The notes under the pieces: generated by a model
The model's database searches: none
Seen by the model: the letters and a program-made list of their open reading frames with translations, nothing else
Told to the model about the DNA's origin: nothing
Assembly (NCBI GenBank): GCA_950097015.1
Contig: CATNEN010000007.1
Coordinates: 12,400,001-12,464,000, forward strand
Direction of reading: 5' to 3'
DNA from: Macrostomum hystrix
Taxonomy: Eukaryota > Animalia > Platyhelminthes
DNA: 64,000 nucleotides
In this document: in pieces, positions 31,080 through 61,400 of the stretch
Layout: each line of letters opens with the position of its first letter
Position numbering within the stretch: the stretch's first letter is position 1
Translations under genes and position numbers: made by a program

Positions 31080-32165
31080 TCAACCGGCGATGAAGGCGGA
31101 CGCGCAGGAGGCAGCGTAAGTGTCGGCCTCCGGCCAGCGAGAGAACCTGTCGACGACGGTTAGCAGGTGCGTGAAACCGTGGGACTGCAACAGCGGTCCG
31201 ACAAGGTCAATGTGGACGTGCGCGAAACGACTACTGGGCACCGGGATGCTGGCGGGCGGGGCGATCACGTGGCGCTGCACCTTGGCCGTCTGGAGGGCGA
31301 TGCAGCTGCGAGTCCATTGGCCGACGTCTCTGTTGATGCCCGGCCACACGAAATTCTGGGACACTAGGCGCCGTGTACTGCGTACGGACGGTTGCGCCAG
31401 GCTGTGGACGGCATTAAAAACGCCGCGGTGGAAGTCGGCGGGCACCAGCTGGCGTGGGCGGCCGGTCACGGTGTCGCAGATGACCCCCAGGCCGGGACGC
31501 AGCGCCACGCGTTCGAACCGCAGGCCGGTGCCGGCAAGCGCGGGATCGTCGACCCTCTGGGCGCGTGCCATGGCCGCGTAGTCGATGCCGGGAGCAGCGG
31601 GGGATCGGCCACCAGATTGTCCTTGCCCGCCACGTGCCGGATGTCGGTGGTGAACTGCAACACGTATGCGAGATGCTGCTGCTTGCGCGCTGACCAGGGG
31701 TCCGATAACTTGGCCATGGCCGCGACCAGGGGTTTGTGGTCGGTGTAGGCGGTGAAGATGCGGCCTTCCAAAAAGTAGCGGAAATCCCGCATGGCCAGAT
31801 AAGTGCGAGTAACTCACGGTCGAAGGCGCTGTACTTTCGTTCAGCAGGTCGCAGTTGGCGGCTAAAGAAAGCCGCCGGGCCTCGCCGGCACGCTGCTCCA
31901 GGACCGCCTTGATGGCGGGCGGGCGGTGCAAATCGGACGATGGCTTCGACTTTGTCTGGTAGCGGCACGGCGCCCCGGCTGTTGATGCAGTGGCCCAGAA
32001 AGTCGATTTCGCTGCGGCCAAACTGGCACTTGGCGGGATTGACGAGGAGGCCGTTGTCTGCCAGGAGCTGAAACAGCGTGCGCAGGTGCTCCAGATGCCG
32101 CTGCTCGCCACTAGGAAATCGTCAATATAGGCGAACACGAAGTGCAGGCCCTGGCAGACCGTGTC
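31080..32165 (-). pseudogene. Degenerate Ty3/Gypsy pol fragment (RT-RNase H-integrase), frameshifted and internally deleted
   Basis: FAYIDDFLVAS, ERKYSAFDRELLA, YTDHKPL, HVHIDLVGPL and VVDRFSRWPEA are spread over different frames; no LTRs seen. Confidence 0.9.
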
Positions 32166-33448: not shown

Positions 33449-34342
33449 CAGCAGCCAGAGGTACAGCCAAGCCAGGTGGTGACTTCCACACCACAGGTGG
33501 TGGCAGTGACGTCGACGCCAACGCCGGCTCCTGGGAGCTACGCGAGCCGCGTTCCGGCCTGGGTGCTGCGTGGCCACCGCATCATGGGCATCATGCAGCT
33601 GCTGCTCGGAGTGCTGGTCATCTTAGTCAACATAATCGGCCTCGTCGTCATCAGCATATCCAGCATGCTCTTTGGCGGCTTCTGGTGCGGTCCGTTCTTT
33701 ATTGCTGCTGGCATCGCCGGCATCATGGCGGGCCGCCCGCTCGGCAGCTGCACCCTGGGCTGCGTGGTCACCTGTCTGGTGTTCTCCATCTTCTCCTCCA
33801 CAATCGCCTTCTCGGCCATGATCACTGGGGCTATATTCGCTTCCAGGGACGCTGCCGCCATCGTCTGCGTGCTGCTCCTAGCCTTCGAGTCCGTGTTGGC
33901 CATCGTGCACTCCGCCTACGCCTGCCGCGCCTCCTGCTGCTGCGTGGCATCGGCTGCTACCAGCTACCAGCACCAGCAACAGCAGGTGTTCCTGGCCGGC
34001 CAGCCCGGGCCCTACACTGGCCAGCTGGTGGCCTATCCCGGCCAGCAAGTCATCTTCTTCACAGGTGGTGGCGGACACCCGCCGCCACCCGGATATCCTG
34101 TGTCCCAAGCTGGTTATCCGGCTGCTCAGGCTGATTATCCGGGTGCTCAGGCTGGTTATCCGGGTGCTCAGGCTGGATACCCGGGTCCTCAGGCCGGATA
34201 CCCGGGTCCTCAGGCCGGATTCCCGGGTCCTCAGGCCGGATACCCGGGTCCTCAGGCCGGATACCCGGGTCCTCAGGTCGGATACCCGGGTCCTCAGGCC
34301 GGAAAAAGTTCAGGAGATCCATCGGATTTGCCAACGGACTGA
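33449..34342 (+). CDS. MS4A/CD20-like four-transmembrane protein with a GYPGPQA-repeat tail (start codon not in this exon)
   Basis: Four hydrophobic segments with CD20-family pattern (GIMQLLLGV; GFWCGPFFIAAG; SAYACRASCC); acceptor tcttgcag at 33447-33448; in-frame 21-bp coding repeat. Confidence 0.8.
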   Translation, partial: QQPEVQPSQVVTSTPQVVAVTSTPTPAPGSYASRVPAWVLRGHRIMGIMQLLLGVLVILVNIIGLVVISISSMLFGGFWCGPFFIAAGIAGIMAGRPLGSCTLGCVVTCLVFSIFSSTIAFSAMITGAIFASRDAAAIVCVLLLAFESVLAIVHSAYACRASCCCVASAATSYQHQQQQVFLAGQPGPYTGQLVAYPGQQVIFFTGGGGHPPPPGYPVSQAGYPAAQADYPGAQAGYPGAQAGYPGPQAGYPGPQAGFPGPQAGYPGPQAGYPGPQVGYPGPQAGKSSGDPSDLPTD

Positions 34343-36612: not shown

Positions 36613-37100
36613 CAGCTACAAAGACGGCCGCCGCCGCAGATCCTGGCGGCATCTCTCGGGATCTCTTGGCAGTGGCACGGTGCTGGTTGTCTCAAGTGAA
36701 AGGAGTTTTATCATGTGGAAATTCCTGCTTGTTGGTGGTGGTGTCTTGTCCGGCCCGTTTATCGCCGCCGGCATTTCCGGCCTGCTGGCGGGCCGGCCCG
36801 GATGCTGCTGCACCCTCACCTGCCTGGTGCTGTCAGTCCTTGCCTCGATCTTCGCCTTCTCAGCCATGATCAGCGAGGCCACTGCTGCGGCTTTTAACAC
36901 CTACGTTTTCCAGGAGTTTTCCAAAATGAACCCGCAGTCGCCACCAGCGCAGAAGGACACCTTCATCGCTGTCTTCGGATTTGGCGTCGCCTGCTCGCTC
37001 CTCTGTGCCATCGAGTTCGTGCTGGCCATCGTATACTCCGCCTTCGCCTGCCGCACCTCCTGCTGCTGCGTGCCCGACGCAACTGCTGGGTTTAATGAGC
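36613..37100 (+). pseudogene. Second MS4A/CD20-like paralogue, N-terminally aberrant (possible pseudogene or internal exon)
   Basis: GPFIAAGISGLLAGRP, TCLVLSVLASIFAFSAMI and EFVLAIVYSAFACRTSCCC are clearly paralogous to 33449-34342, but TM1 and the Pro/Gly tail are missing. Confidence 0.6.
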
Positions 37101-37577
37101 TATGGTGGCCTTTTCATATAGAATATAAAATCAATACTAGAAAATACACAGTGGACACAATAAAGCTTATTGTTATTATTACATTTTTAAAAGCACCTTT
37201 CACGTTAATTAGCTGTCGAAGCTCTGAAGTAGCTTTAGGATGATAAAGCAGCAAAACTTTGCTTTCCCTGTCTTTTATTTCTCTTTTCAATGTCTTCTTC
37301 CATGGAGAAACGTTTGAATGGTAATGGCTCATACTCTCTATGCTCGTGAGTTCCTATGCCTCTTACAAAGACAACAAATTAGTGAGCGTGAAACTCTGCC
37401 GTACTTCTTTTGTGGAGGTGGCCGGCAACCGGCAACGCATCAAGCTGCAAAATAGCTTGCCAGTAGACAGGCATAGGGTGTGTCAGATGGAACTGTGAGA
37501 GATGTAGCTGCACATTGGGTGCTAGTTAGGCCTGTTCTATAAAGCTTGCGTACCCTAAGATGACGGAGACTGCCGAA

Positions 37578-42797: not shown

Positions 42798-43144
42798 GTC
42801 AAGTGAGTCTGGCGCAATTAGCAGCGGCTTGTCTATGGAAAAGCATCAACAAATAGCCGGCGTGTTCTGATTGGCCGAATTCTGTCTAATTATATATTAA
42901 AAACCAATGAGCAGCAAGCTGGCAGATAAGCATGGTTCGGTGGACTCTGCCGCAACAGATCATCGCTAATAGTACATTTCAGAACTGAAAGACCCGCAAG
43001 TTACTGCCAAGTCCGATGAAACTTTTAATATCAATCGATTTTAAACTGTGACCAGAACGCACAATGTTCTTTTAAAGAGCTGCTTCACCATAATAAGCAT
43101 CAGGCTGAAATCTTAGCACAGGACAGACAGTTTTAGAGGCCAAG

Positions 43145-43861
43145 TCAGTCCAGCCGCTGCAGCAGCTGGTCCAGTCGGGCAATGTGCAACTCCTCGGGGA
43201 CGTCGGCGCTCTCCCGGCCGGTCGGGTCCAGCAGCAGGGCTCGGAAGCCGCAGGCCCTGGCGGCGTCGAAGTCGGTGCGCCGGTCGTCGCCGACGTGGAG
43301 GATGGCGCCGGGCTCGACGCCGAGTCGCTGGGCGGCCAGCGCGAAGATGCGCGGGTCCGGCTTGACGAGGTCGGCCTCGAAGCTGGTGACGACGGTGGCG
43401 AACTTGTCAGCCACGCCCAGGCGGGCCAGGATGTCCGGCAGGCGTTCGTCAAAGTTGGAAAGGACGCCCAGCTTCAGGGAGCGGGCGGCCAGCGCTGCCA
43501 GGGTGTCCGCGCAGCCGTCAGTCAGCTCCACGGCACCAGGAGTCTTGTAGAAGTTCCTGAGGTTCTTGCACAGGATATCCGGCACGTCCTTCGGCTTCAG
43601 GGCGCCTTCAGAGGCGGCCACGAACAGGCGGCGGATGAACTCGCTCCACCAGGCCTCGGCGGTGGCGGCCCCGGAGGCGCGGCCGAAGTTGGGCTGCTCG
43701 GCCAGCATGGCGGACATTGTGGCAGGCACCGCAGCGTCCAGCCGCTCCTGGCTGACACTGTCGATGCCGTAGCTCTTCGCGTACTTCAGGTACTGGTAGC
43801 CGACGCTCTTGCGGGCGCGGACCAGCGTGCCCCAGGCATCGAATGTGACGGCCGCGAGCCT
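43145..43861 (-). CDS. HDHD3: HAD-superfamily hydrolase, HDHD3/Reg-2-like (start Met absent from this exon)
   Basis: Motif I VTFDAWGTL, SVGYQY, PNFG, motif II LGVLSNFDERL, KPDPRIF, motif IV HVGDD..DFDAARACG; acceptor ccttgcag at 43863-43862. Confidence 0.88.
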   Translation of the reverse strand, partial: RLAAVTFDAWGTLVRARKSVGYQYLKYAKSYGIDSVSQERLDAAVPATMSAMLAEQPNFGRASGAATAEAWWSEFIRRLFVAASEGALKPKDVPDILCKNLRNFYKTPGAVELTDGCADTLAALAARSLKLGVLSNFDERLPDILARLGVADKFATVVTSFEADLVKPDPRIFALAAQRLGVEPGAILHVGDDRRTDFDAARACGFRALLLDPTGRESADVPEELHIARLDQLLQRLD

Positions 43862-44371
43862 CTGCAAGGCACGGAAAATCGCCCCTATTACACTGGGGAA
43901 TGTGGACAAAGTGGCAAGCCAAAGGACTTCAGAATCCTGAATCGTTCGTGATAGAATATAAACAAATGAAAGTCGCAGGAAAATGAAGCGCGGTTCAGCG
44001 CGAGTTGAACACTGGAGACTATTTTATTGAATCATATTGCCAATTGAAGTTACTGAGAACTAGCCGGGACCATGGAAAGCACAACAGCAGCAATTATATG
44101 CGAACTAGAGATAAAGACTAACTGGCATCTCAGTGACCAGAGGAGGACTCTGGGGACTAGGAGCAGAGCAACTGGGGAGCACCAAAGTGGCATCTAGAAA
44201 ATGTAGAAACAAAATTCATTAAAATTATGAAATGCAACGCTAACAAGAATACATAGGATATTGTTCTCAGTACAGATCAACAACTGCTTCACCACCGGTA
44301 TGAGGCAACTATTATAATAATTTTACATGTAACAATAAGAAAACTATTCACTAATTGTTTTAGTAACTCAC

Positions 44372-45680
44372 AATCTCACACTCTTACAAACCGGATCTCA
44401 CACTCTCACAAACCGGATCTCACACTCTCACAAACCGGATCTCACACTCTCACAAACCAGATCTCACACTCTCACACACCGAATCTCACACTCTCACACA
44501 CCGAATCTCACACTCTCACACACCGAATCTCACACTCTCACACACCGAATCTCACACTCCAACACCGGATCTCACACTCTCACACACCGAATCTCACACT
44601 CCAACACCGGATCTCACACTCTCACACACCGAATCTCACACTCCAACACCGGATCTCACACTCTCACAAACCGAATCTCACACTCTCACACACCGAATCT
44701 CACACTCTCACACACCGAATCTCACACTCTCACACACCGAATCTCACACTCTCACACACCAGATCTCACACTCTCACACACCAGATCTCACACTCTCACA
44801 CACCGAATCTCACACTCTCACACACCGAATCTCACACTCTCACACACCGAATCTCACACTCTCACAAACCGAATCTCACACTCTCACACACCGAATCTCA
44901 CACTCTCACAAACCAGATCTCACACTCTTACACACCGAATCTCACACTCTCACACACCGAATCTCACACTCTCACACACCGAATCTCACACTCTCACACA
45001 CCAGATCTCACACTCTCACACACCAGATCTCACACTCTCACACACCAGATCTCACACTCTCACACACCAGATCTCACACTCACACACCGGTTCTCACACT
45101 CTCACACACCAGATCTCACACTCTCACACACCAGATCTCACACTCTCACACACCAGATCTCACACTCTCACACACCAGATCTCACACTCTCACACACCAG
45201 ATCTCACACTCTCACACACCAGATCTCACACTCTCACACACCAGATCTCACACTCTCACACACCAGATCTCACACTCTCACACACCAGATCTCACACTCT
45301 CACACACCAGATCTCACACTCTCACACACCAGATCTCACACTCTCACACACCGAATCTCACACTCTCACACACCAGATCTCACACTCTCACACACCAGAT
45401 CTCACACTCACACACCGGATCTCACACTCTCACACACCAGATCTCACACTCTCACACACCAGATCTCACACTCTCACACACCAGATCTCACACTCTCACA
45501 CACCAGATCTCACACTCTCACACACCAGATCTCACACTCTCACACACCAGATCTCACATTCTCACACACCAGATCTCACACTCTCACACCGGTTCCCACA
45601 CTCACACACCGGTTCCCACACTCACACACCGGTTCCCACACTCACACACCGGTTCCCACACTCACACACCGGTTCCCACA
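44372..45680. repeat. 22-bp minisatellite grading into a 20-bp unit that overlaps the zinc-finger stop codon
   Basis: Units CTCACACTCTCACACACCAGAT and CTCACACACCGGTTCCCACA. Confidence 0.95.
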
Positions 45681-46864
45681 CTGCCAGACGGTCCATTCCG
45701 TTGGTGAATCCTCGCGTGCCGGTATAGGCGGTCCTTCCTCTTGAAGCGCGAGTCGCACAGCCCGCACTGGAAGGGCCTGTCGGTGCTGTGAACCAGCAGG
45801 TGTCGTTTCAACAGGCTCGGTGCGCGGAAGGTCTTGCCGCAGTGCTCACATCCTTGCTCGCTCCTCAAGCTTTTGCGACGCTTCTTAGCTGCGCAGTTGA
45901 GATCCGAACCGACGTGCAGCTCGTGGCTGAACACGTGCTCAAAGAATTGCAGCGGGTGCGCCTGGCCGAGCTTCTCACCGCAGACGGGGCAGTCGGGACA
46001 GCTGCTCCAGCGCCGCCGTGGCTGCTCTCTGACCGAAGCCGGGTGTCGGGCCACCCGGTGCCTGTACAGGCTGAACTTGGATGAGTAGGAGCGGGGGCAG
46101 AGGCTGCAGGTGAAGGCCTGCTCACCATTGTGCGCCTTCATGTGCAGGCGAAGGCTCCGGTAGGTGGGGAACACCCGGCAGCACACCAGGCACTGGCTGG
46201 GGCTGCTGGACTCCGTGCCGAGTGGTGGGCCGTGGCAGCGCCCGGATTTGCAGTGTCCAAGTAGCAGGCGGCGCTCAGCGAAGCCTCTGCCGCAGCTGTC
46301 GCACTTGAAGGGCTTCTCTGCTCTGTGGACCAAGGCGTGCCTCTTCAGGTGCGTCGACTGGCTGAAGCCTTCGCCGCAATGGTCGCACCTGAATGGCCGC
46401 TCGCCGGTGTGAATTCTGACGTGGATGTCCAAGGTGGAGGACTGGCGGAAGCGCCTGCCGCATTGCTCGCAGGCGAAGGGCAGCTCGCCAGTGTGCACCA
46501 GCCAATGCCGCTTCAGGCTGGTCGAGTAGGCGAAGCGCTTGTCGCACTGCCCGCAGGCGAAGAGCTTCTCGCAAGACTTTGCTGCCAATCCGAGACCGAC
46601 TTCCTGAGCAGTCTGGCGCATCAGGGCGTCAGCAATGCCCTCAGCTCCCTGTGGTTCAACGAGCTGCTCATTGAGTTCCTCTTTCTGCTCCGCCTTAAGC
46701 TTCTGAGCAGCGCTCTGAGGATGAAGCTCAGCCAGCGGGGAGCTTTCCTTGGTGACGGGTGGAGCCATGGAAGGCCGCAGCACGCCTTTGATGTCGGAAA
46801 CGGCTCTGGGAACGACATTTCCGGAGCTCATCTGCCAGTCGCAGCAACTGCCAGGCTCTGCCAT
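45662..46864 (-). CDS. C2H2 zinc-finger protein (about 9 fingers), 400 aa
   Basis: CxxC...HxxxH fingers with HTGELPF, HTGERPF and HSTDRPF linkers. Confidence 0.92.
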   Translation of the reverse strand: MAEPGSCCDWQMSSGNVVPRAVSDIKGVLRPSMAPPVTKESSPLAELHPQSAAQKLKAEQKEELNEQLVEPQGAEGIADALMRQTAQEVGLGLAAKSCEKLFACGQCDKRFAYSTSLKRHWLVHTGELPFACEQCGRRFRQSSTLDIHVRIHTGERPFRCDHCGEGFSQSTHLKRHALVHRAEKPFKCDSCGRGFAERRLLLGHCKSGRCHGPPLGTESSSPSQCLVCCRVFPTYRSLRLHMKAHNGEQAFTCSLCPRSYSSKFSLYRHRVARHPASVREQPRRRWSSCPDCPVCGEKLGQAHPLQFFEHVFSHELHVGSDLNCAAKKRRKSLRSEQGCEHCGKTFRAPSLLKRHLLVHSTDRPFQCGLCDSRFKRKDRLYRHARIHQRNGPSGSVGTGV

Positions 46865-46921
46865 CTCCGCGTGCCGTCAGCACTGGAACAGTCATAAGCA
46901 GTCAACTAGTCACAATATATT

Positions 46922-47887: not shown

Positions 47888-48895
47888 TCAGGACAGGAAG
47901 AACAGGTCCTCCAGCACACCCGAGTCGTCATCGCCGTCAGAGTTCTCGCCCTCCCCCGCATCGACGAAACCGCGAAATTCTTCTTCATCCTCGTACAACT
48001 GTGGCCCGTCGAGCGACTCCACAATGTCAAGCAGCGACTCCGGCCGGGGTGACGTCGAAGAGGGCGGCGGCTGTTGATGAGTGGCGGGCGGGCCGAGAAC
48101 CTCCGGCAGGACGTAGAATTCGTCCTCGGCTGAGTCGGCATTCGGTCCTCGCAGGATCCGGTTTCGTGTGCTGCCTGCGTTGTCCTTGCCGCGGCGGTTG
48201 CCACGCTCGTGAACGCCGCTGAGCTGCCGCAACTGACGGCAAAGATGCCGCTGGGTCCTGTCATTGAGCTGAAGCTGCTGTCGCAGCAAGGCCACGATCG
48301 CGTCATCGTCATCCGCCTGCGGCTTGGAGCTGGCAGAGTTGGGGGCGACGGAAGCGCCGATCTCGCGGTCGATTTGCTCCGTAAAGGCGCGGCGTCGGCT
48401 TTTTGTCGATGGCGCCGGCGGCAGAGGCGGCAGCGGCTGCGGCGGCGGCAGCGAATCACACTGGCTGGCAACGCTTTGAGGACCTCGACGCTCCCTGTCA
48501 GCGTCGGCTGAAAGGCGCGCCTCTAGCTCGGCGAGGGTGCGCCGCTGCCGCTCCAGGTCGGCGCGCAGTTCGTCAGCCTCACGACGGCGCAGCTGCCGCT
48601 CTTCGGCGAGGAGCCGCTCTGCGCGCGCCTTCGCTTCGTCCAGGCGACCGAGCTCCGACACCAGCTCAGCCAGGCGCTGCCGCTCCGCCGGGCCCAGATC
48701 AGCGAAGGTCCTCAGCTGCTGCTGCTGCGGTGGCGCTGGCGGCGGGTACTGCTGAGGCAGCGCAGCCTCGATCAGCTGCTGCTTTTTCTGAGGTCGCGGC
48801 CGCTTTTTAGCCGTGAGAGCGGGCGAGTCGGGCTCGCGCAGGCCGGACACCCAGGCCGCCTTGGGCCGAGTGTCCAGCCGCTGCTGCTGGTCCAT
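47888..48895 (-). CDS. KIAA1328: Hinderin (KIAA1328)-like coiled-coil protein
   Basis: FADLGPAERQRLAELVSELGRLDEAK matches the hinderin conserved coil as recalled; C-terminal VLEDLFFL motif; ATG at 48895 downstream of acceptor tttttttacag (48930). Confidence 0.75.
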   Translation of the reverse strand: MDQQQRLDTRPKAAWVSGLREPDSPALTAKKRPRPQKKQQLIEAALPQQYPPPAPPQQQQLRTFADLGPAERQRLAELVSELGRLDEAKARAERLLAEERQLRRREADELRADLERQRRTLAELEARLSADADRERRGPQSVASQCDSLPPPQPLPPLPPAPSTKSRRRAFTEQIDREIGASVAPNSASSKPQADDDDAIVALLRQQLQLNDRTQRHLCRQLRQLSGVHERGNRRGKDNAGSTRNRILRGPNADSAEDEFYVLPEVLGPPATHQQPPPSSTSPRPESLLDIVESLDGPQLYEDEEEFRGFVDAGEGENSDGDDDSGVLEDLFFLS

Positions 48896-49094
48896 TCGCT
48901 CACCGCTCGGCGGTTTCCTCGGCTGTTCGCTGTAAAAAAACGAGGCCAGAAGGCCTGTTACAGAACACATAAGCATTCTTCTCTTTTCATTCTGACCGAA
49001 ATAGCGAAAGAATAAACGAGGATGGCTAGGAAAAACGAGGACGGAGCGGAGAATCTAGGACGTAGGGGAAAAATGAGGAAGAAGATGAGAAACT

Positions 49095-49270: not shown

Positions 49271-49748
49271 GGGAACAATGAAGAATGCTAGAACTTTTCT
49301 TCCCTACGGGAGAGCCGGAGCAGGAGAAAAGCCGGAGAAACGAGGACGGAGGTGAGAAAAGAGAGAGGAGGGGAGAATCGAAGACTGAAGAAAAACAAGG
49401 ATGGATGAGAAAAACGAAACGGTGGGGAGATACAAAAGAGTTCTGATTTCCGCAGCACTCAATAGTTAAAGAAGAGAATCAAGCAGCAGCTGAACTTGTG
49501 CAGAAGCAGACAGGCTACCGAGAGCATGAGTTTTATTTATATTTCATCTGAGCCATCGGACTCTAGTTTTTAGGCTGAAGCGGGCAGAACGTAGAGTTTA
49601 GGTTGTCTAGATTTCGCACTGAGAGGATATTATTAATTTGTTAGGAACTAAGCGATGTGGTTCTATGTTACAGAGTTCATTATTCTAACCCCAAACTACA
49701 GTGCAAGCTACATGGGCAGGTGAGTTAGTTAATAAGGGCGCAGCAGGC

Positions 49749-50015
49749 CTATTTCTCCGGCACTGCCTCCAGCGAGATGGTCTTGTAGATGGCCTTGTTG
49801 CCGGAAAGTTTGCCGCCGAAGAAGCCGCGGTGGCCGGCCTGCTCCACAATGCGCTGGTCGCGCGCGTACATGGGGAAATCGTAGGCGTCGTTGAGCACGG
49901 AGCGCTGGTACCAGCGCCGGTCGCGCAGCAGGTAGTTGGCCGCGAAGTGGACGCCGTGAAAGGCATTCATGCACACGAACACGATGGCCGCGGAGGGCAG
50001 GATTTCGTACCACAT
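49749..50015 (-). CDS. NDUFA1: NADH dehydrogenase (complex I) subunit NDUFA1 (MWFE), 88 aa
   Basis: Begins MWYEILP, one TM helix, conserved M..RD.RI and Y...LE; ATG at 50015. Confidence 0.92.
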   Translation of the reverse strand: MWYEILPSAAIVFVCMNAFHGVHFAANYLLRDRRWYQRSVLNDAYDFPMYARDQRIVEQAGHRGFFGGKLSGNKAIYKTISLEAVPEK

Positions 50016-51201
50016 TGCGCTTTCTAGTGCTACTACTTTTGTGAGTAGTTCGGTGCGGGCGGATGGGTCTGGAAGAGTCGAAGGCAAGATTGAAATTTGC
50101 TAGTTTACAAAACTTTCTAACCGATTAAAAATGTCGCTGCCCCACGCCTAACTGATATATTTGGCCTATATACTTCTTCTGGCCTACAGTAGCTTCAATG
50201 CGCACAAACTCAAATGCCAGGTGGGCCCGAGCTGTTAAAGCATGACCTAAATTGATTGTCTGGCACTGCTGAAATCGATACACCTGCTTTATACGGCCTC
50301 CTAAACCTAACAAAACTGCAATTCAGTTGAAAAAAATAACTCAAGTAGCGGAGAGTTTCACGCGCGGTCGAGGGCCGCCAGGATACACGCGACAACTCGA
50401 GCTCAGCATCGCGTGAGCACTGCTCAAGAAATCGTGCATATTTATTAGCTGCACGAGTTGCGGGCTCATGGCAGAAGCAGAAGCGCAGTGGAGGGGATTC
50501 TGAAGAGGAGAGGGAAAGTACAGCTCGGCTGCTACAGCAACGCTGGCTGGGGCGGTGGGCAGTAATGACTGGGACGGCAACGTTGATGAGGGATCCCGGC
50601 CCGGCCAGGTAGGGAACACCTGCTACTAGGGGCAGAAACTGCAAAGGCTAACAATGGTCTTCATAAATTAGTTATGACTGACAAGTTCCCGCGGGAGAGG
50701 CGAGGTGGGCGGGCCAGCCAGCCGGCGAAATCGTGGGAGGCGGTGAGGGGTCAAGCGGCGGGCCGGCAGTGCCTGAATAGCTGGATGCAGGAAGCGCATT
50801 CAGCAGCCTCCTCCCCCCCCCAGCCAAAGTACTGAGTTCCAGCATAGCAGCCAGGAGCAGTCGGGGCTGTTTTTGACAGCTCTGGCAGCAGCGGCAGAGC
50901 TTTAGAGCAGCCATGGGTCTCAGAGCACTTGAACAGGCGCTAATGGCATAGAGGCAAGCAGCAATGGCAAAGCAGGGCTTAAGCAATGTAATTGACACAT
51001 TAAAATGCAAAAATATGCACTGCGACTAGGCCATCGCTTGTAAGTACAATAAGTACTCTGTCTAGGATTAGAAGTGCATGCAATTTGCTCATTTGGCTTG
51101 GGCTAGTTATGTCAGAAGTGAAATTATTGAAGAAAGATCGGTTAAAGTCACTATCAAAACACGAAGGATCAGGCAACAATGGCTCCTGTGGCTGGCTGGG
51201 C

Positions 51202-51972
51202 TCAGCCCAGGCGCTTGCGCTGCAGAATAATGGCGATGCCCAGCAGCACAGTGAGGTTGTCCACCAGCAGGCGTGCGTGGCACCAGAAGTCCATGCCGAC
51301 CCGGTGCAGCCAGTAGTTCGGCCGCATGTCGTTGACGAGCGTGACGCCCAGCAGGATGCAGGCGAGCAGCTTGATGGCCGCGTAGAAGTTGAAGTTGGAC
51401 AGCAGCGCCAGGCCGGCCAGGCAGTACATGCAGGCAACGGCCCAGTGCAAGTGCGGCAAGGACTCGCCCACGTTGCGGCGAAGGGCCTCGGCCTCTTCCG
51501 GCACAGTGGCAAAAGCGTAGGCGGAACCGATGGCGTAGATGCCGAGTAGGGAGCGGGCGGCCTGGCGCAGCTGGCTGGAGGTGGAGGCCAGGGTGTCGCA
51601 GATGGCGGCGAAGTGCAGGAAGACGGCACAGCAGCCCAGGCTGGGCAGGGCCAGGCGGGCGCGCACCCAAGGCTTGTAGCGAAGGGCTGGCGCAGTGATG
51701 GTAAGGTAGGCCATGTACAGCAGCAGGCCGCAGTAGATCAGCAGCGCCTGCCGTCTGCGAATGTTCAGAGAGACGGCGAAGCCCAGGGCCACGCAGCTGA
51801 ACACCAGCACGTAGATGAGGCGAGGAGCCAGCGGTGGCTCAGACTCCCGTTTGGCTCGCTCGCTCAGCAGCATCAGTAGCGTCAGCGCGTTGGCAAATGG
51901 CACGCGGGTGAATAGCACCACCAGGAACTTAAAGGACATGCTGCCCGCCCCCTCCTGCTGTTGCTGTGCCAT
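51202..51972 (-). CDS. TMEM101: Transmembrane protein 101, 256 aa
   Basis: LFTRVPF..LMLLSERA, LGIYAI..AY and YW....DFW match TMEM101 as recalled; same length and multi-TM profile. Confidence 0.88.
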   Translation of the reverse strand: MAQQQQEGAGSMSFKFLVVLFTRVPFANALTLLMLLSERAKRESEPPLAPRLIYVLVFSCVALGFAVSLNIRRRQALLIYCGLLLYMAYLTITAPALRYKPWVRARLALPSLGCCAVFLHFAAICDTLASTSSQLRQAARSLLGIYAIGSAYAFATVPEEAEALRRNVGESLPHLHWAVACMYCLAGLALLSNFNFYAAIKLLACILLGVTLVNDMRPNYWLHRVGMDFWCHARLLVDNLTVLLGIAIILQRKRLG

Positions 51973-54582
51973 GTGTCTTGCTGCAAGATAGGGTGCTTCC
52001 CAATTGTTATTATTTTTATTAACGAAATCATTTTAAACACAAATGCGCTTATCCGTGCATCAACTGGGCAGCTAGATATGTTAATAGATGGCAATAGAAC
52101 TTTAAGGCTAACGTTACTCTGTAAATCTAGTGCACTCATTGAGTTACAAAGACAGAAAGCAGACAAAGGCTCTACAAGCGTGCAGACAAGGGGAAGCCCG
52201 GCGTATAAAAACAAATAGTAAATTATGAATCCCGAGCTTTATATTACTTGTACGAAAATTGGATACCTGGAAATCAATATCGTCAATGGAAACAGGTCTA
52301 GATTGCAGATCAAGAGACGCTAATAAGCTGATGCCCCAAATACGCTTGCGTGATCAGAACCTCCCTTCATTCCGTCTGTGCCCGTCTATCAGCAGCGCAT
52401 GCCTGACTGAGGCCTGGACCCGCCCGGCACATCGGTCCGATCTGGCAGCCACGCCCGCCAAGCGGAAATGATGGCTGGAAAAATTACAATGGCTACAGTG
52501 GACAGCACAGGTTTCATTTAATCTGCCCTTCTTCTTACAAGCAACCAAGCGCACAGTTAATAGAGCAACAAGTAAAGGACGCACAGATTTGCACAGCAAT
52601 TATGCGGCCTATGCGCGGGGTGCAGCCGCTGTCATTCGAGAAGCGGCGGTGAGCAGCACGGCGAAGCATCGGGTGGAGTATCAAATGTCTGGTGCCATCC
52701 ATCCGCACAGCCACTAGGAACTAGGATCTAAATGCTGGGTGCAGGCCTTAGTTATGAGCGCCCGATGTCTGACCTATATTTGTTTCGAAGGCGATGCAAG
52801 ATGGTGCACGCTGGGAGACTGGAAATTGGAGGCGCAGTCAGCTCCTGGCTACTGAGAGTCCTGAGCGGAGGGTCAGACAGAAAACATTTCTATTCTAATC
52901 AATTTGCCCCTTAAGATCCATCTTCCCATTGTTCCCATGCACTGCAGCTCAATACGGACATCGCTAACGAGCTAAACAGGAAGCCGCAAGTGCGCCATCT
53001 CAAAAGTAATCAGGTTGAGCAGCTTTTGGCAGCTGCACAAACCAGGCCTCCAGAGGGCCACGGAAAGAACTGGCAAATAAAGCTGGCGAATTACTCAGCA
53101 ATTCATTGGAAACTGAATCCGGTGTCGGGCGCTTGGGCCGCTATTATTGACACAATGCGCGGTCTATTTTTGCAAAAAATGATTGGCATTTAGCATCTAA
53201 TGACGAGCGGAGATGCGGCAGCGCAACAGGAGCTAACACAGATCCAGACTTAGCATGAGAAGGCAGGCGAGGCAGACGCGGGATGCCAATAGACGGGGGA
53301 GTACAGAGCGTTTGCTTGTTTGGAAGGATGACATTAAAATACCCGGAGAGGATGACGGTGGGATAGGAAAGAATGTTAATTACAAAAATCCCGAAATGAA
53401 ACAAGCAATGCCATTTTTGGACCACACAGGCAGCGCGTCAGCGCAGCCACGCAACGCTCATTAGGCAATATGAATCAAGGGAAGCGGTTGAGAGCGCAGT
53501 GAGGCCACAAAAGCGAAGCAGCTCAGGTTGAGCTTGAGGCCAAGCACTGAGCGGCAAGAGAAAACAACGATTTTATTGCGCAAAAAGCAATGAGCTCAAG
53601 CTGCATTTGACGTAGGAATATCCTGGGAATCTCGCTGACGGACTACGAGTACAAAAGTGCTATAATGCTTTAGGTAACCTAGGGAAGTGATTCTACTTAG
53701 AAGCCGCAACAACATAAGTCTGCAGACAAACTGCAAACCTGTCTTGGTGAAAAAGCCCGCAGTCCATTTTTCAGTTGCTTCATCCTCGGCTGCACACTAA
53801 CGTACCCGCTGTCGATTCCGAGGGTTTGGGAGCCCAGCTGCCAACTCCCAGCGGGCGGGCCTCTCACAGCCATTCCTATTCGATGGAAGGTAAAGAACGG
53901 AGAGGAGACAAGTCGGGACGGGCTTTCGATTGACAGGCATCGACCCGCTGTCGCCAAAGCGAAGTGAAATCTCGAGTGAGACAGACAGGGAGGTGTCGGC
54001 AACGAAGAGCTAGGACTAGGAAGAGGGGCGCCTGCCCACCTCTAGGATCAGTGTCGTCTTCCCGGCGCGCTTGTTATTGACCCAAGTGCGCGGGCGGAAT
54101 GGGAGCGCCAGTGCTGTCGCGAATCAATGCTGGGGAAATAACAGGCCAGCAGCACACCCCCTGCCGGGTTCGTCTGTCTGCGGCTCATATGCGTAGGGAA
54201 GGATGCATCAAAACAACTGCAGAAATTAGGCGCCAAAGAAAATGCCAGCCATATGGATTGTGGCGGGAGCAGAGAGTTGGGGGTGCAACTTCCAACTCTC
54301 AGGCGCACCTTCCTGGTGGGAGTGTGTAATTGTCACCAGGCACACATAAGACTTCAGGGGCGCACGTATTCCCTTTTACTCGCAAATTGCATAACCTCGC
54401 GTCCACATCTTTCCACAAACTCGAAGCGATTCAGGCGAACAAGATAAAGGAAAATGCGAAAAAGCCTCGCGCAGAAAATTACCCAGCGCAGGAAATGTAA
54501 ACGAACAGTAGTAGTGCACAGTTATTACGGAGCACGCACGGGGGAAAGCATGTCCATAAGCATCCTCAGCGAAAGAAGCACG

Positions 54583-56535
54583 CTACAACTGCGTTTCAGT
54601 CTCTGATAGCTGCGGTTGACCTCCAGCAACAGCTACGCCGCCGCTGCTGCTGCTGCCGTTGCGAAGACGGTTGCCAGATCGCCTTCGGTGGCCGCTCTGG
54701 TGCACAATGGCCGATGAAGTACAAACAGCGCTTGACGTGGATGCGGCAGAGTCCGATGCCGAAGCGAGCTGTTGGCGTGCGGCCAATAGGTAGTCGCGAA
54801 TAAGATGAGCCGCCTGGTTAGCCTGCCGGCAGTGGAGGGACAGACGGCCTTGGCCCCGCAGCTGAAGGGAGAGTTGCGCGCGGCTGTCCGAGCCGAAGCC
54901 GAGCAGGTCAGGGTAGACAAAGACGACTAGCGGTACTGTACGCCGCCAGTCAGCGTCGATAACATCGCCGTCATCATTGCAAGAGCTAGGAGTCTCGGGC
55001 AGAATCTGCAGACCAGCTTCACCGACAGCGAGTGCGCATGCATCCCCGATTGACGCAGTAGCTGCTGCCAGCGGGCTGTGAAGTCGAGCAGAGAAAACGG
55101 TGCAGCCGAACAGCGGAGATGCAGAACGGCAGGCGGCCAGAAGCTGCAGATCGAGAGCCCGATGGCGATCTCGACCTTCCTTTGGGGCGATGGCGGCCGC
55201 CTCGGCAGACGCAGTGCTGGCAGCAGTCAGGATGGCATCAAGGGGTACGCGGTCTCGCCAACGTCGGGGCAGGATTCGGCGCACTAGGGCGGGATCTGTG
55301 CCGGCGGTGGTGGCTTCGCGTGCTGATTGAATGCCGCAAAGAGCCTTCGCCAGTTCCAGCGTGAGCGGCAGGTGGCCCTCGAAGACATTAGTGAGGCATT
55401 GGTGGGCCATAAGAGACACCTCTATGTCGTCCGATTCATCCACATAGGGAGAAATAAAAAGGCGCTTCTTAAGCAGCAGTCGGACCAGATGCGGGCTACC
55501 ATTCAGCTGACCATGTTGCTCCCAACGGAACAAGGCGTCCCCGATAAACTCGGCAGGCCCTGTGCAGCGCTCGGGCGCGCCAGGGAACTGCTCAAACAGA
55601 GCCCAACCAGCTGCGCTGGGCTTCAATGGAACTTGGCTGATCACAGCAGCGGTAGCCTCAGCGCCAGTGAGGTGCGAGTGAAACTCCAGCTGGCGGCTCT
55701 CCCCATTCAGCAAGTTGACAAGCACCCGCGCGTTGGCGCATGCAAAGGCCGCCGAGAGCTCTGCGGCCGAAGGTGGGAATCGGCGTCTGGAGGGTCGGGC
55801 TGGTCGGGCAAGGCAAGCAAGACAAAACTGGGCGCAGCGCGCTGGCTCGCATGGTGGTTGTTGGCGGGATAAACGGGTGAGATGACAGCGCAGGAGACGC
55901 ATTGCGGGCTCCCAGGTGGGACGGATAAGAGAGCAGGCAGCGCAGAGCAACTGATGTGGTCTCGGTGCTGTTGCCGGAAGGCCGTCTGGCGAGTCGCAAT
56001 AGGTCTGGCGCACGAGCTGCAGGAAGAGCTCGCTTGTTAGTCGGTCGGATTCCAGGCATCGCTGCAGCACTGCTTGCACCGTCCGAACAACCGCAGGCTC
56101 GTCGAGACTGGTGGCTCGCTCGACAAGATGTATCGCAGCTGAAAATTTCACCGCAGCTGAGCGTGCAGAGTCGGTGGTGTGTATAAGCAGCGGCTGTTTT
56201 AACGGGGCAGCAGCCCGAATCCAGTAGGCGGCCTTGAAGCAGGCTGGGTCTGCGCAGCCAGCAGACGCTGGGGTCGGTGGCTTCGGCGCATCTGATGGCG
56301 ACTCGCCTCCATTGGGGCTTCCACAAGCTTTTGGTGCGTCGGCATTGCCGCCCCCACGCTGTCGGCGCTTGGCTCGGCTGAGGACCCGCAGGAACGCAGA
56401 TGCCGCGTCCTCCTGAGGCGGCCTGGCAAGGAGGCCAGAGACGATGATGGCTCTTCGGCAGTTTGCGAGTTCATCAGACAACGAAGCTACGGAGGAGCCA
56501 GCATCATCGGCAATCGCTGTCGTACCTTCTGCCAT
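54583..56535 (-). CDS. MyTH4-FERM domain protein (PLEKHH/myosin-tail-like), 650 aa, intronless CDS
   Basis: MyTH4 (LTSELFLQLVRQT; RRFPPSAAEL) followed by FERM (GWALFE; IGDALFRWE; LLLKKRLF; PLFGCTVF). Confidence 0.85.
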   Translation of the reverse strand: MAEGTTAIADDAGSSVASLSDELANCRRAIIVSGLLARPPQEDAASAFLRVLSRAKRRQRGGGNADAPKACGSPNGGESPSDAPKPPTPASAGCADPACFKAAYWIRAAAPLKQPLLIHTTDSARSAAVKFSAAIHLVERATSLDEPAVVRTVQAVLQRCLESDRLTSELFLQLVRQTYCDSPDGLPATAPRPHQLLCAACSLIRPTWEPAMRLLRCHLTRLSRQQPPCEPARCAQFCLACLARPARPSRRRFPPSAAELSAAFACANARVLVNLLNGESRQLEFHSHLTGAEATAAVISQVPLKPSAAGWALFEQFPGAPERCTGPAEFIGDALFRWEQHGQLNGSPHLVRLLLKKRLFISPYVDESDDIEVSLMAHQCLTNVFEGHLPLTLELAKALCGIQSAREATTAGTDPALVRRILPRRWRDRVPLDAILTAASTASAEAAAIAPKEGRDRHRALDLQLLAACRSASPLFGCTVFSARLHSPLAAATASIGDACALAVGEAGLQILPETPSSCNDDGDVIDADWRRTVPLVVFVYPDLLGFGSDSRAQLSLQLRGQGRLSLHCRQANQAAHLIRDYLLAARQQLASASDSAASTSSAVCTSSAIVHQSGHRRRSGNRLRNGSSSSGGVAVAGGQPQLSETETQL

Positions 56536-58232
56536 TTAGGGAGTTAAGCTAAAGGATTAAACCACATGGACGGGCTCCGGCAAACAGAGAAGAGGCAGCC
56601 TCTTTTTAAAAAGCCGAGGCTATTGAGCACTTTTGTTCTCCTCAGTCCATCTGTTCATAAGTAAAAAAATCCTTTTCAATATCAAAGTAATTTTGCGAGT
56701 TTTGCTTCTTTGGCGCTACCAAAAGCTTTGCCAAATGTGGAGCGGCACGAGAGTGGGGGCGAGCAAGCAACAGGAGCAACTGAGTTGGAGCAGACGCTGA
56801 GTGACTGAGCGAGGCTGAGGGATCGCCTTCTGCTCTGTCGTTGCGGCACAGCTATCCTAGACACGGCAGGCTTTGCGCCCGCCCCACAGTATGTAAATAC
56901 ACACAGTCCCGCTTGCCCCACCCCAGCCACCAGCCGCCCTTGCCCGGGCAGGGCCAATGCCAAGCCGTGCGGCAGGCAGAGCCGCATGGCCGGGCATCCT
57001 GCAGACAAGCACTGCAGCCAGAGGATATAAATTCGCGGACTACAAGGGGCAGGAAACCCGGTCGGAGTGAACACGAAGCAGCGCCTACTTAAAAAACAAT
57101 GCCGGTATGGAGCAGCGGAGCTACACAGAAATCCCATTGCATGGTCCCGAGACCGACTGATTCACCTGCTGCGTGCGCTAACATAACATGCGACTAGAAG
57201 TCGGTGCACAACACACACAGGGCAAGATCCGCGGACAGTCAAATAACTCGCAATAAAATTAAGTAGCCACCACAGTCTGGCACAGCGGCATAGTTTGAAT
57301 GTCAACAGAAAAGCGCGAATCCAATTACAGGCCTCTCCAAATTAGCGGCTTCGGCATGCGGAAGACACACACCCAACGCCAGCAAAGCAGACTTGCTAAT
57401 TGATAACTGGGTTCATAGTTACACACTGATAGTGTTAATCTGGATGAATTAGGGTCATTGGAATGTGTGAGCATCCCCAGTGAAGGTATGCACAGCAATC
57501 CATAGGAGTGCTTCGTGTGAGAGTCCACAACAGGCAGGCAGGAGTACATTACAATAGAGCGGAGCCCAGATAGACAATGCACAGCGCACAGCCTGGCAGC
57601 AACAGGGAGCCGTCAAGCAGTATGGGAGCGGGGCTAGGACAGGCGCAGAGAGCTCATGAATAATTAAGAACTCAGAGTGCCAATGGGAAGGCGACAATGT
57701 CATGGTCCGGTCCCAGCCCGCAGCTTATGGTGGCACAATGAAGTCAGGGCGATGTCTCGCACATTTAGTGCAATTACACAAGACCCAGTCTGAATAATTC
57801 AGTGCCACAGCGGGCCATGGAAGCTGCGCGTTGGACTCGGACAGGTTAGTAGGGGCGAATGCCCACCGGTGTTGATTACGCATGGCGGGCAACACGATAG
57901 CGCTGTGTCAACACCATATAAAAATTGCAGCTATCCTGGTCGGCAATTAGACAGGCAAAAGATTGATAAAAAGCAAGAGAAGACAGTAGCAAGCATGCAG
58001 GAGACTGGATCTTTAAAGAGACTGAAACCAGCTGCATGGAATTCGGTATTTAAATCCATGACAGCTACTAGAACGAGGGAAGTACCAAATGGAACACGTG
58101 AAGAGCACAATGCAGTATCCTTCATAAATCTTAAAATCTGCAGAAATGACTGCACCGATGCTAACCTGTGAGTCATCTGACAGACTGATGAGGATTAAAT
58201 CTAAAAAATAACTACTTTCTAAATATACTACT

Positions 58233-58450: not shown

Positions 58451-61400
58451 ATGACTGAGCAAATTTCTCTCGCGCCTCCCGGCCAGTTTGTTATCGATAG
58501 CGATTGCCACTCAACTGCACAGCGCTGGACTGCATGGGCTCGCCGGTTCGCCACATACATTAACGCAGCTGGGATCCATGACGCAAAGCGAGGGCAGCAC
58601 CTGCTGTTGTACGCCGCGGGAGAGGAGCTGCAGACCATCGTCGAAGAGAATGAAATTGACGCTGGGGAAGACTACAGCAGCCTCGCAAAGAATATCAAGG
58701 AATTCTGGGACGGCAAGAACAGCATCGTGTTCCTCCGCTTCAAGTTCGAGACCTGCAGACAACAGCAAGGCGAGACAATCGACCAGTGGTACCAGCGCCT
58801 GCGCAAGGCGGCGGAGCCGTGCGAGTTTGGAGCGATCAAGGATTCGCTGATCCGAGACAAAATCGTCGCCTACTGTGACTCCGAGAGGCTGAGGAGAGAC
58901 TTCCTACAGAGCAAAGACATCACCCTGACAGATGTGCTGAGGAAGGCGAGAGCCAAAGAAGCGGCGGAGCAGCAGGCCAGCGCGATGGAGAGCGGCAGGC
59001 CAGGTGAGCCGCAGCAGCAACTCGCAGCCATCCGGAGAGCCGAGCAGCCACCAGGGCCGCAGGTGCGCTGCAATCGGTGCGGCAGGCCAGGGCACTCCAC
59101 GTGCGCCGCGGCGCAAGGCAAGAGCTGCAGAAAGTGCGGAAAGCCAGGCCACTTCGCCCGAGCTTGCAGGTCCAGGCAGGAGGCGCCCCAAAGCAATTCG
59201 AATGCTGTCGCGATGCTGCAAGTTGAGACCAGCTACGAGAAGGTGGACGACCCGGACACTGGCATATTCAAGGTCGACCAGGAGCAGCAATCCGCCCACA
59301 CAGTAGCTGAGATCAACGGCACCAGACTGTCAGTGCTGATCGACAGCGGGGCGGCTCGCAATGTGATCAACCGCGCAACGTTTGAGAGCCTTAAACAGCG
59401 GCCGCGTCTGCAAGCAGCCTCTGACAGGTTGTTCGCGTACGGCTCGGACCGGCCGATGCAACTCATCGGCAAGGCGGCGATGTCCATCCGCTTATTCGGC
59501 CGACGGGCGGTCGCCACATTTCACGTTGTCGACGGCAGAGGCATCACCATCATCGGCAGGCAGACGGCCACTCAAATGGAAATCCTGCGGATCGGACCAC
59601 CACCGACGGTCGATCATCAGGTGCTGCAGGTCGCGGAAGCGGAGGCGGCTGTCGACAGCCTCCTCGGCAACACGAGATCCAGTGGAATGCCGCAAGATGC
59701 CCTTGAGAGCATCGGCAGGATACTGCGCAAGTACTCCAGCGTGCTCAGCGGCATCGGCTGCTTCACCGGGCCGCCAGTCAGCATCCACCTGACCGACAAC
59801 GCCCGACCGGTTTGTCACGCACCGTCTAAGGTACCGATTCACCTGGCCGAGGCAGTGGACAAGGAGCTGCAGCTACTGGAGCAGCTCGGAATCATCGAGC
59901 CCGTCGACGGACCAGTTCCGTGGGTCGCGCGGATGGTCGTTGTGCCCAAGAAGGAGCCAGGCGAAGTGCGGATCACACAGGACCTCCGCGATGTCAATCG
60001 CTATGTCATCCGCGAGCGTCACCAGATTCCGACTTTTGAAGAGGTGACGGGAGACATGGCCGGCAGCACCGTCTTCTCGGAACTGGACATCGCGAAGGCG
60101 TTCTACCAGGTGCCTGTAGCAGAAGAATGCCGCAATCTGCTGACATTCTCGACACCCCGAGGACTTCGGCGTCTCACTCGGCTGTGCATGGGCCTGTCCA
60201 CCTCACAGGAGATCCTACAGAGCGTGATGTGCAGAGTGCTGGCAGGCCTGCCCAACGTAAAATGGATCCACGACGACGTGGTCGTGTTCGGCCGCACGAT
60301 GGCGGAGCACAACAGCAGCCTCGAGACCTGCCTGGCCCGCCTGGCGCAACACGGCATCACGCTAAATGCTCGAAAATGCAGGTTGGCACGCAGCAGCATT
60401 GAGTTTATGGGAATGCGACTGACGGCCGAAGGAGTCCAAGCCACAGAAAGCAAGGTCGCCGCCGTTCAAGAATTCAAGGAGCCAGAGACGATAAGCCAAC
60501 TTCGATCGTTCTTGGGCCTCGTGAATTATCTCGCAGTATTCACGCCACAGCTGGCCAAGGTGGCGGAGCCGCTGCGACGCCTGACCCGGAAGAACACCGA
60601 CTGGCAGTGGGGCGCCGACCAGGCCAGCGCCTTTGCGCAGCTAAAGCGCAGCATTGCGGAGCCGACAACGCTGGCATTCTACGACAAGCGGCTACGGACA
60701 CAGCTGATTGTGGACGCGGGACCAACCGGACTCGGCGCAATCCTGGCGCAAGTACAGCACGACGGCAGTTCGCGGCCAGTCGCATACGCGAGCCGGACCC
60801 TCTCCGACGTAGAGCGGCGATATTCGCAGACCGAAAAAGAGGCGCTCGCCGTGAAGTTCGGCTGCCTGAAGTTTGAGTACTACTTGTATGGATCGCCCGA
60901 ATTCACGGTGATCTCCGACCACAAGCCGCTGACAGCCATGTATGCGCCAGGGTCACGGCCGCCTCCACGAGTCGAGCGTATGGCGCTGCGTATCCAGCAC
61001 CTGGTATTCAAGGTCGAATACCAGCCAGGAGCGTCCAATGCTGCAGACATACTCAGCAGGCAGCCTCTAAGCGCTGAAGGACGTAGGACCAGCGAGCAGC
61101 TGAGAGAGGCCTATATAAACGAGGTAGCGCAGGCGGCTGTCCCGAAGGCGCTCACGCTCGAAGACATCCGCAAGAGCTCAGCCAGCGACCCAGTTATCCG
61201 GGCAGCGATAGCAGCGATGCAAGGCGGCCAATGGGACCGCTCTAGCGCTGAGATGCGGTCACTCCACGCGCTGCGAGAGGAGCTGTCGGCGGTAGACGGA
61301 GTTCTTCTTCGGCATCAGCGGATTGTCGTGCCAGCAGCTCTACGACAGCAGATGCTCGAGCTGGCGCACCAAGGACACCAGTGCTCGCAGAAGACGACCG

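What the first reader, a model, noticed from the sequence alone, without database searches (positions are those of the whole stretch)
43840..43910. HDHD3 has no start codon of its own; a spliced-leader AUG would supply it in frame
Seen: the minus strand reads ...ccgtgccttgcag|AGG CTC GCG GCC GTC ACA TTC GAT. The catalytic motif-I Asp is the 8th codon after the acceptor. No in-frame ATG exists between the upstream stop and the acceptor (the ORF track used a TTG), and the first ATG lies after motif I. Known: flatworm SL RNAs end in AUG, which can act as the initiator Met in schistosomes. Inference: SL-AUG plus this exon gives MRLAAVTFDAWGTL, a normal HAD N-terminus, so translation would depend strictly on trans-splicing.
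Basis: partly seen in the sequence, partly recalled or inferred. Interest (0 to 1): 0.8.

Follow-up and report, generated by a model that had tools for sequence, protein, structure and literature searches.

The report
Flatworm gene borrows its start codon
In a free-living Macrostomum flatworm, the HDHD3 hydrolase gene has no usable start codon of its own, and its RNA is joined to a spliced-leader RNA ending in AUG exactly in frame, so the leader likely starts the protein, a mechanism already known from parasitic flatworms.

Summary
Confirmed, now with transcript evidence. The minus-strand HDHD3-like frame (43861-43145) begins at a CAG acceptor. The motif-I Asp is codon 8; the first in-frame ATG is codon 49. 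Of 4 runs laid, 2 (two studies) have a contig reaching the acceptor, and both carry a leader ending in ATG joined in frame. One leader matches the published Macrostomum lignano spliced leader 25/25. The M. lignano relative (88% identical, annotated 'partial') starts at the same residue. Two neighbours also take the leader but have their own ATG, with the leader AUG out of frame. The gene is likely the last of an operon-like cluster. The mechanism is published for schistosomes and tapeworms, and this scan proposed it before on other genomes (unchecked notes). Side finding: run X2 holds two different leaders, whereas one is published for M. lignano.

The parts
43145..43861 (-). HDHD3/REG-2-like HAD hydrolase coding exon, 238 codons plus TGA, no intron, no ATG before codon 49
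   Evidence: covered by X5 contig 43000-43862 with 0 other letters
43862..43880 (-). Trans-splice acceptor (pyrimidine-rich tract and TGCAG); leader ending in ATG is joined here in frame
   Evidence: loose ends at 43862 in X2 and X5; fits the published [T/C]TNCAG acceptor motif (PMC8629364)
43838..43840 (-). HAD motif-I Asp codon (codon 8 after the joint, residue 9 with the leader Met)
   Evidence: Asp in 148 of 150 relatives at this column
43715..43717 (-). First in-frame ATG inside the gene; its 190-aa product lacks motif I
   Evidence: TIGR02252 score 120.4 against cut-off 155.2, versus 155.8 for the full frame
43862..44013 (-). 152-nt T-rich spacer (35% T), likely the intercistronic region removed by trans-splicing
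   Evidence: X5 upstream contig 43913-44390 at depth 10.9
44023..44028 (-). AATAAA, likely poly(A) signal of the upstream transcript
   Evidence: X1 and X2 contigs stop at 44014 and 44012 (same study, so a weak hint; X5 runs on to 43913)
44123..44128 (-). Rival cis mini-exon candidate: ATG CCA followed by gttagt, phase 0
   Evidence: no joint to 43861 listed in 4 runs
44373..45682 (.). 22-nt satellite, 60.5 copies, likely within the upstream gene's 3' UTR
   Evidence: X1 and X5 contigs run into it
45662..46864 (-). C2H2 zinc-finger gene, upstream neighbour, one open frame
47888..48976 (-). Open frame of 335-362 aa with no Pfam family, same strand
49749..50068 (-). NDUFA1 (MWFE) gene; leader joined at 50069|50068; own ATG at 50015; leader AUG out of frame (12-codon uORF)
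51202..51980 (-). TMEM101 gene; leader joined at 51981|51980; own ATG at 51972; leader AUG out of frame (33-codon overlapping uORF)

Best explanation
The HDHD3 exon is trans-spliced to the flatworm spliced leader, whose terminal AUG lands in frame with the first codon and likely serves as the start codon, because the gene has no ATG before its conserved motif-I Asp. The gene is likely the downstream member of an operon-like cluster: the upstream transcript would be cleaved near 44013, the 152-nt spacer removed, and the leader would supply both cap and Met, giving MRLAAVTFD. Shown: the junction, its frame, the missing ATG, and the same leader on two neighbours. Inferred: initiation at that AUG, one shared precursor, and the absence of minor cis isoforms.
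For:: loose ends at 43862 in X5 (25/25 identical to the 3' end of the published M. lignano leader) and X2 (26/29); no cis joint listed; the same leaders on NDUFA1 and TMEM101; no leader-like sequence in the window beyond chance (1 match with 2 mismatches, 2.6 expected). Asp in 148 of 150 relatives; among the 134 that start with Met and have it, the median position is 11 and 9 have it at position 9; the family cut-off is passed only with the first 48 codons. M. lignano PAA93799.1 (88%) is annotated 'partial' and begins at the same Arg. Literature: PMC3510090 (passage read) reports SL-AUG use in Echinococcus and cites in vivo proof by Cheng et al. 2006.
Against: Only contigs were available, one per run, and 2 of 4 runs do not cover the site. 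The runs' kind is not on record as RNA; it is inferred from the leader. No ribosome or protein data. The leader AUG must often be bypassed, since it is out of frame in both neighbours, and it has a pyrimidine at -3, so efficiency here is unknown. The frame stays open for 54 codons upstream of the acceptor and holds near-cognate codons. An X5 contig reads unspliced through the TMEM101 acceptor, so unspliced forms exist in this cluster.
Confidence: 0.9

Rival explanations
1. A cis-spliced exon supplies the start in some or most transcripts, best candidate ATG 44128 with the CCA|gttagt donor, which would give MPRLAAVTFD.
For: Phase-compatible on sequence; the stretch is transcribed in X1, X2 and X5; 113 GT[AG]AG motifs lie in the upstream satellite.
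Against: No joint listed in 4 runs, and the contigs that reach the acceptor carry the leader. The donor does not fit the top M. lignano motif GT[G/A]AG. The candidate lies upstream of AATAAA 44028, likely in another gene's 3' UTR, and behind an out-of-frame ATG at 44193.
Confidence: 0.05
2. The mRNA is trans-spliced, but the main protein starts at the internal ATG 43717 or at a near-cognate codon on an unspliced transcript, and the leader AUG is bypassed as in the neighbours.
For: The leader AUG is out of frame in NDUFA1 and TMEM101, so bypass must occur; the upstream frame is open for 54 codons.
Against: The 190-aa product lacks motif I and falls below the family cut-off. The first 48 codons are conserved in M. 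lignano. A ribosome skipping the leader AUG first meets an out-of-frame ATG at 43839.
Confidence: 0.04
3. The locus is a 5'-truncated pseudogene that is transcribed and trans-spliced as a passenger of the cluster.
For: No start codon of its own; the database relative is labelled partial.
Against: Intact 238-codon frame with all HAD motifs, 88% identity to M. lignano over full length with the same first residue, joint exactly in frame.
Confidence: 0.01

Closest known systems
[quoted passage not shown] 2006, seen only as cited in PMC3510090, PMC5832876, PMC9851317, PMC12582326; Echinococcus cases in PMC3510090)
   Same: Leader ends in AUG, joined in frame at the acceptor, needed to give the conserved N-terminus.
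   Different: Here in Macrostomum, a free-living lineage outside the Neodermata. PMC3510090 states conservation for Neodermata and cites planarian work I did not read. The Macrostomum passages I read show no gene-level case; PMC10468722 only labels the leader's ATG a translation start codon in a legend. HDHD/haloacid had 0 hits in PMC3510090.
M. lignano SL trans-splicing and operons (PMC8629364, parts 1-3 of 4 read; PMC5730564, passages)
   Same: X5 leader identical over 25 nt; acceptor motif fits; short spacer (152 nt; published peak about 100 bp, threshold 1 kb).
   Different: That paper says all trans-spliced genes carry the same 35-nt leader and sought SL genes by 100% matches only; run X2 shows a second leader differing at 3 of 29 letters.
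HDHD3 / REG-2-like HAD hydrolases (TIGR02252; human HDHD3 structure 3k1z)
   Same: Passes the TIGR02252 cut-off narrowly (155.8 vs 155.2); best solved-structure hit is human HDHD3 (E 4e-28); motifs I-IV present.
   Different: No genomic start codon. Substrate not established here; orthology rests on best hits, and the tree did not group it with the named animal HDHD3s.
Multiple spliced leaders in tapeworms and planarians (PMC7653826 passage; PMC12582326 section 7; planarian SL3 seen only as a cited title)
   Same: Several AUG-ended leaders in one sample, with one gene able to take more than one.
   Different: Not reported for Macrostomum in the texts I could read; the supplement of PMC10468722 with other species' leaders could not be opened.

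Membership tests
SL trans-spliced gene | A leader not encoded upstream in cis is joined at an AG acceptor | tested here: met
   (X2, X5); no leader match in the window beyond chance. The whole genome was not available, so this covers the window only.
SL trans-spliced gene | The same leader occurs on unrelated mRNAs | tested here: met
   NDUFA1 and TMEM101
SL trans-spliced gene | Leader derives from an SL RNA gene with donor, Sm site and trimethyl cap | not testable with these tools
   No genome held; genome index did not complete; published for M. lignano
SL-AUG-initiated gene (Cheng 2006 type) | Leader ends in AUG, in frame with the main ORF | tested here: met
SL-AUG-initiated gene (Cheng 2006 type) | No own in-frame AUG before conserved N-terminal residues | tested here: met
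SL-AUG-initiated gene (Cheng 2006 type) | Ribosomes initiate at the leader AUG | not testable with these tools
   Needs ribosome profiling, proteomics or a reporter
SL-AUG-initiated gene (Cheng 2006 type) | No alternative ATG-bearing cis isoform | tested here: inconclusive
   No joint in 4 runs, but contigs drop rare variants
Downstream operon gene (PMC8629364 criterion) | Same-strand upstream gene within 1 kb (repeat-adjusted) of a trans-spliced gene | tested here: met
   About 344 nt repeat-adjusted from the ZNF stop to AATAAA plus 152 nt spacer
Downstream operon gene (PMC8629364 criterion) | One precursor spans the genes | tested here: inconclusive
   X5 contig covers 43913-44390 across the putative poly(A) site, but nothing bridges the satellite or the acceptor
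HDHD3/REG-2-like HAD hydrolase | TIGR02252 above cut-off with motifs I-IV | tested here: met
HDHD3/REG-2-like HAD hydrolase | Catalytic activity and substrate | not testable with these tools
   No assay; catalytic role of the Asp is recalled HAD-family knowledge

The most novel reading that the evidence does not exclude
Macrostomum has a second, unreported spliced leader in the same animal, and it is preferentially added to a subset of genes such as HDHD3 and TMEM101, so that leader choice controls whether start-codon-less genes can be translated.
Probability: 0.12. Interest if true: 0.7.

Novelty: new member of a known kind. Interest (0 to 1): 0.36.

Why it matters
It gives a clean, transcript-supported case of a leader-supplied start codon in Macrostomum, where transgenesis exists (PMC5730564), so the mechanism could be tested in a whole animal. 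One cluster holds both situations, leader AUG needed (HDHD3) and leader AUG as a uORF (NDUFA1, TMEM101), which makes the rule for using or skipping this AUG testable. It also likely explains why the M. lignano protein is filed as 'partial': pipelines that trim the leader lose the start codon. With parasitic flatworms, it suggests the use is old within the phylum.

Tried and rejected
No whole genome was held and the genome index did not complete (6 tries), so genomic loci of other flatworms and SL RNA genes were not examined. One search listed no holder on record as RNA; 8 runs were listed, 4 laid on the HDHD3 stretch (X1, X2, X3, X5) and 4 on the neighbours (X1, X2, X4, X5); X6-X8 were never laid. 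X1 and X3 have no contig over the acceptor, which proves nothing. The X5 loose ends at 51396/51433 come from a 38-letter match of an unrelated contig and were dropped. Protein searches found no named flatworm HDHD3 other than M. lignano; 10 of the 150 hits were looked up, none named as a flatworm, so conservation beyond Macrostomum is open. I first read PAA93799.1 as a recent duplicate in the same genome, then rejected that: M. lignano paralogues differ by about 1.1% in coding DNA (PMC10733133 passage), so 88% protein identity points to another species or an older paralogue. Rfam found 0 families in the window. The Atlas gave only generic HAD clusters. A search for HDHD3 with pseudouridine gave nothing relevant. 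Cheng 2006 and Wasik 2015 are not held.

Full report
Observation. The sequence is as described. On the minus strand a CAG acceptor ends at 43862 and the frame AGG CTC GCG GCC GTC ACA TTC GAT starts at 43861, running 238 codons to a TGA ending at 43145. The Asp of TFDAWGT is codon 8. The stop-to-stop frame begins at 44023 and has no ATG until 43717, codon 49. The protein matches Pfam Hydrolase and HAD_2, passes the cut-off of TIGR02252 REG-2-like HAD hydrolases narrowly (155.8 vs 155.2), and its best solved-structure hit is human HDHD3, 3k1z (E 4e-28). The 190-aa product from 43717 scores 120.4 and lacks motif I. The HDHD3 name rests on best hits; a quick tree did not group it with the named animal HDHD3s.

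A scan for phase-compatible ATG and donor pairs up to 47000 listed 6 pairs from 5 ATGs. The nearest are ATG 44128 with CCA|gttagt (261-nt intron) and ATG 44193 with a weak gtgctt donor. Sequence alone therefore could not exclude cis-splicing, and transcripts were needed.

Transcript evidence. Eight runs from two studies hold the stretch, none on record as RNA. I laid 4 of them. Two have a contig that reaches the acceptor, and both leave the genome there. X5's loose 24 letters plus the shared G are identical, 25 of 25, to the 3' end of the 35-nt M. lignano spliced leader printed in PMC8629364. X2's are identical at 26 of 29. Both end in ATG, giving ATG|AGG CTC GCG in frame. X1 and X3 do not cover the site. 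No cis joint was listed. In X5 the leader-bearing contig has depth 201.9 and 0 other letters; the upstream contig has 10.9 (contig depth is only a rough figure). The leader has no match in the window beyond chance (1 match with 2 mismatches, 2.6 expected). These are assembled contigs, so they show presence and cannot exclude rare isoforms.

Organism and conservation. The leader and the best protein hit place the window in Macrostomum. M. lignano PAA93799.1 is 88% identical, 238 aa long, starts at the same Arg and is annotated 'partial'. M. lignano's recent paralogues differ by about 1.1% in coding DNA (PMC10733133, passage), so the window is likely another species or an older paralogue. The shared missing start is then likely conserved, though I could not read that genomic locus. 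Among the 150 best relatives, 148 have the Asp. Of the 134 that also start with Met, the median Asp position is 11 (quartiles 10-14), with 19 at position 8 and 9 at position 9. A Met added at the joint puts it at 9, a normal N-terminus.

Surroundings. Five single-frame genes lie on the minus strand: TMEM101 (51972-51202), NDUFA1 (50015-49749), an unnamed frame (48976-47888), a C2H2 zinc-finger gene (46864-45662) and HDHD3. Laying X1, X2, X4 and X5 on 49400-58000 showed leaders joined at 50069 (X2, X5) and 51981 (X2); an X5 contig reads unspliced through the latter. In both neighbours the leader AUG is out of frame with the gene's own ATG and would open uORFs of 12 and 33 codons. So 1 of the 3 observed joints is in frame, and it is the one gene that lacks a start. 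Upstream of HDHD3, AATAAA lies at 44028-44023; X1 and X2 contigs stop at 44014 and 44012 (same study, a weak hint; X5 runs on to 43913). That would leave a 152-nt T-rich spacer, close to the published intergenic peak of about 100 bp for M. lignano operons, and would put the rival ATG 44128 in the upstream 3' UTR. No contig bridges the satellite, so the operon is inferred.

How it most likely works. The precursor is cleaved near 44013, the spacer is removed by trans-splicing, and the leader gives cap and AUG. Ribosomes that start at the leader AUG make the full hydrolase. Those that skip it meet an out-of-frame ATG at 43839 and then the truncating 43717. The junction and frame are shown; initiation is inferred from schistosomes.

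Comparison with what is known. The terminal AUG is a conserved feature of flatworm leaders (PMC12582326, passages and section 7). Its use as initiator Met is credited to Cheng et al. 2006, which I saw only as cited (not held). PMC3510090 (passage) reports 143 of 187 leader-bearing Echinococcus clusters full-length from the leader ATG and calls its use conserved in Neodermata. For Macrostomum, PMC8629364 (parts 1-3 of 4, plus term search) does not discuss it, and PMC10468722 (passages) only labels the ATG a start codon in a legend. Searches listed no Macrostomum gene-level case, but subscription papers are not searched. Earlier scan notes proposed the same idea on other genomes (unchecked). Verdict: a new member of a known kind.

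Side finding. Run X2 carries the published leader on NDUFA1 and a variant, differing at 3 letters in the 8 before GCATG, on HDHD3 and TMEM101. The same variant on two genes argues against a sequencing error. PMC8629364 reports a single leader but searched for 100% matches only. The variant was not found among the 20 of 27 papers listed (its specific 15-letter term had 0 occurrences in them) nor. Against novelty: it rests on one run, which may mix species or strains; HDHD3 takes the published leader in X5, which argues against strict specialisation; several leaders without specialisation are known in tapeworms; and Fig. 2c and Supplementary Table 3 of PMC10468722, which hold other Macrostomum leaders, could not be seen.

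Score. Interest 0.36: well supported, but the mechanism has been in print since 2006.

Noticed in passing
window 43862 and 51981 versus 50069 (run X2): Two different spliced leaders in one run: the published M. lignano type on NDUFA1 and a variant (3 of 29 letters differ) on HDHD3 and TMEM101. By eye the variant could extend the leader's hairpin; not folded.
   Followed up: partly
window 44373-45682: The 22-nt satellite holds 113 GT[AG]AG donor-like motifs on the sense strand, 0.5-1.8 kb upstream of a trans-splice acceptor, yet no cis joint was listed.
   Followed up: no
window 49749-50068 and 51202-51980: The leader AUG opens uORFs (12 codons; 33 codons overlapping) ahead of NDUFA1 and TMEM101, so it must be bypassed or followed by re-initiation.
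   Followed up: partly
window 46864-46882: At the candidate acceptor 46882 of the zinc-finger gene, a leader AUG would be in frame but followed by one codon and a stop; not checked with reads.
   Followed up: no
window 47888-48976: Intronless 335-362 aa frame with no Pfam family in the middle of the cluster.
   Followed up: no
window 54583-56535 (-): 650-aa frame with MyTH4 and RA-like domains upstream of the cluster; little read cover.
   Followed up: no
window 58451-62443 (+) and 31080-31792 (-): A 1330-aa frame that reads by eye like a retrotransposon gag-pol polyprotein, and fragments of a similar element; not scanned.
   Followed up: no
window 15536-17059 (-): 507-aa single-frame gene that reads by eye like a voltage-gated potassium channel; not scanned.
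   Followed up: no
window 33584-34342 and 36713-37243 (+): Two similar cysteine-rich membrane-protein-like frames, likely tandem paralogues.
   Followed up: no
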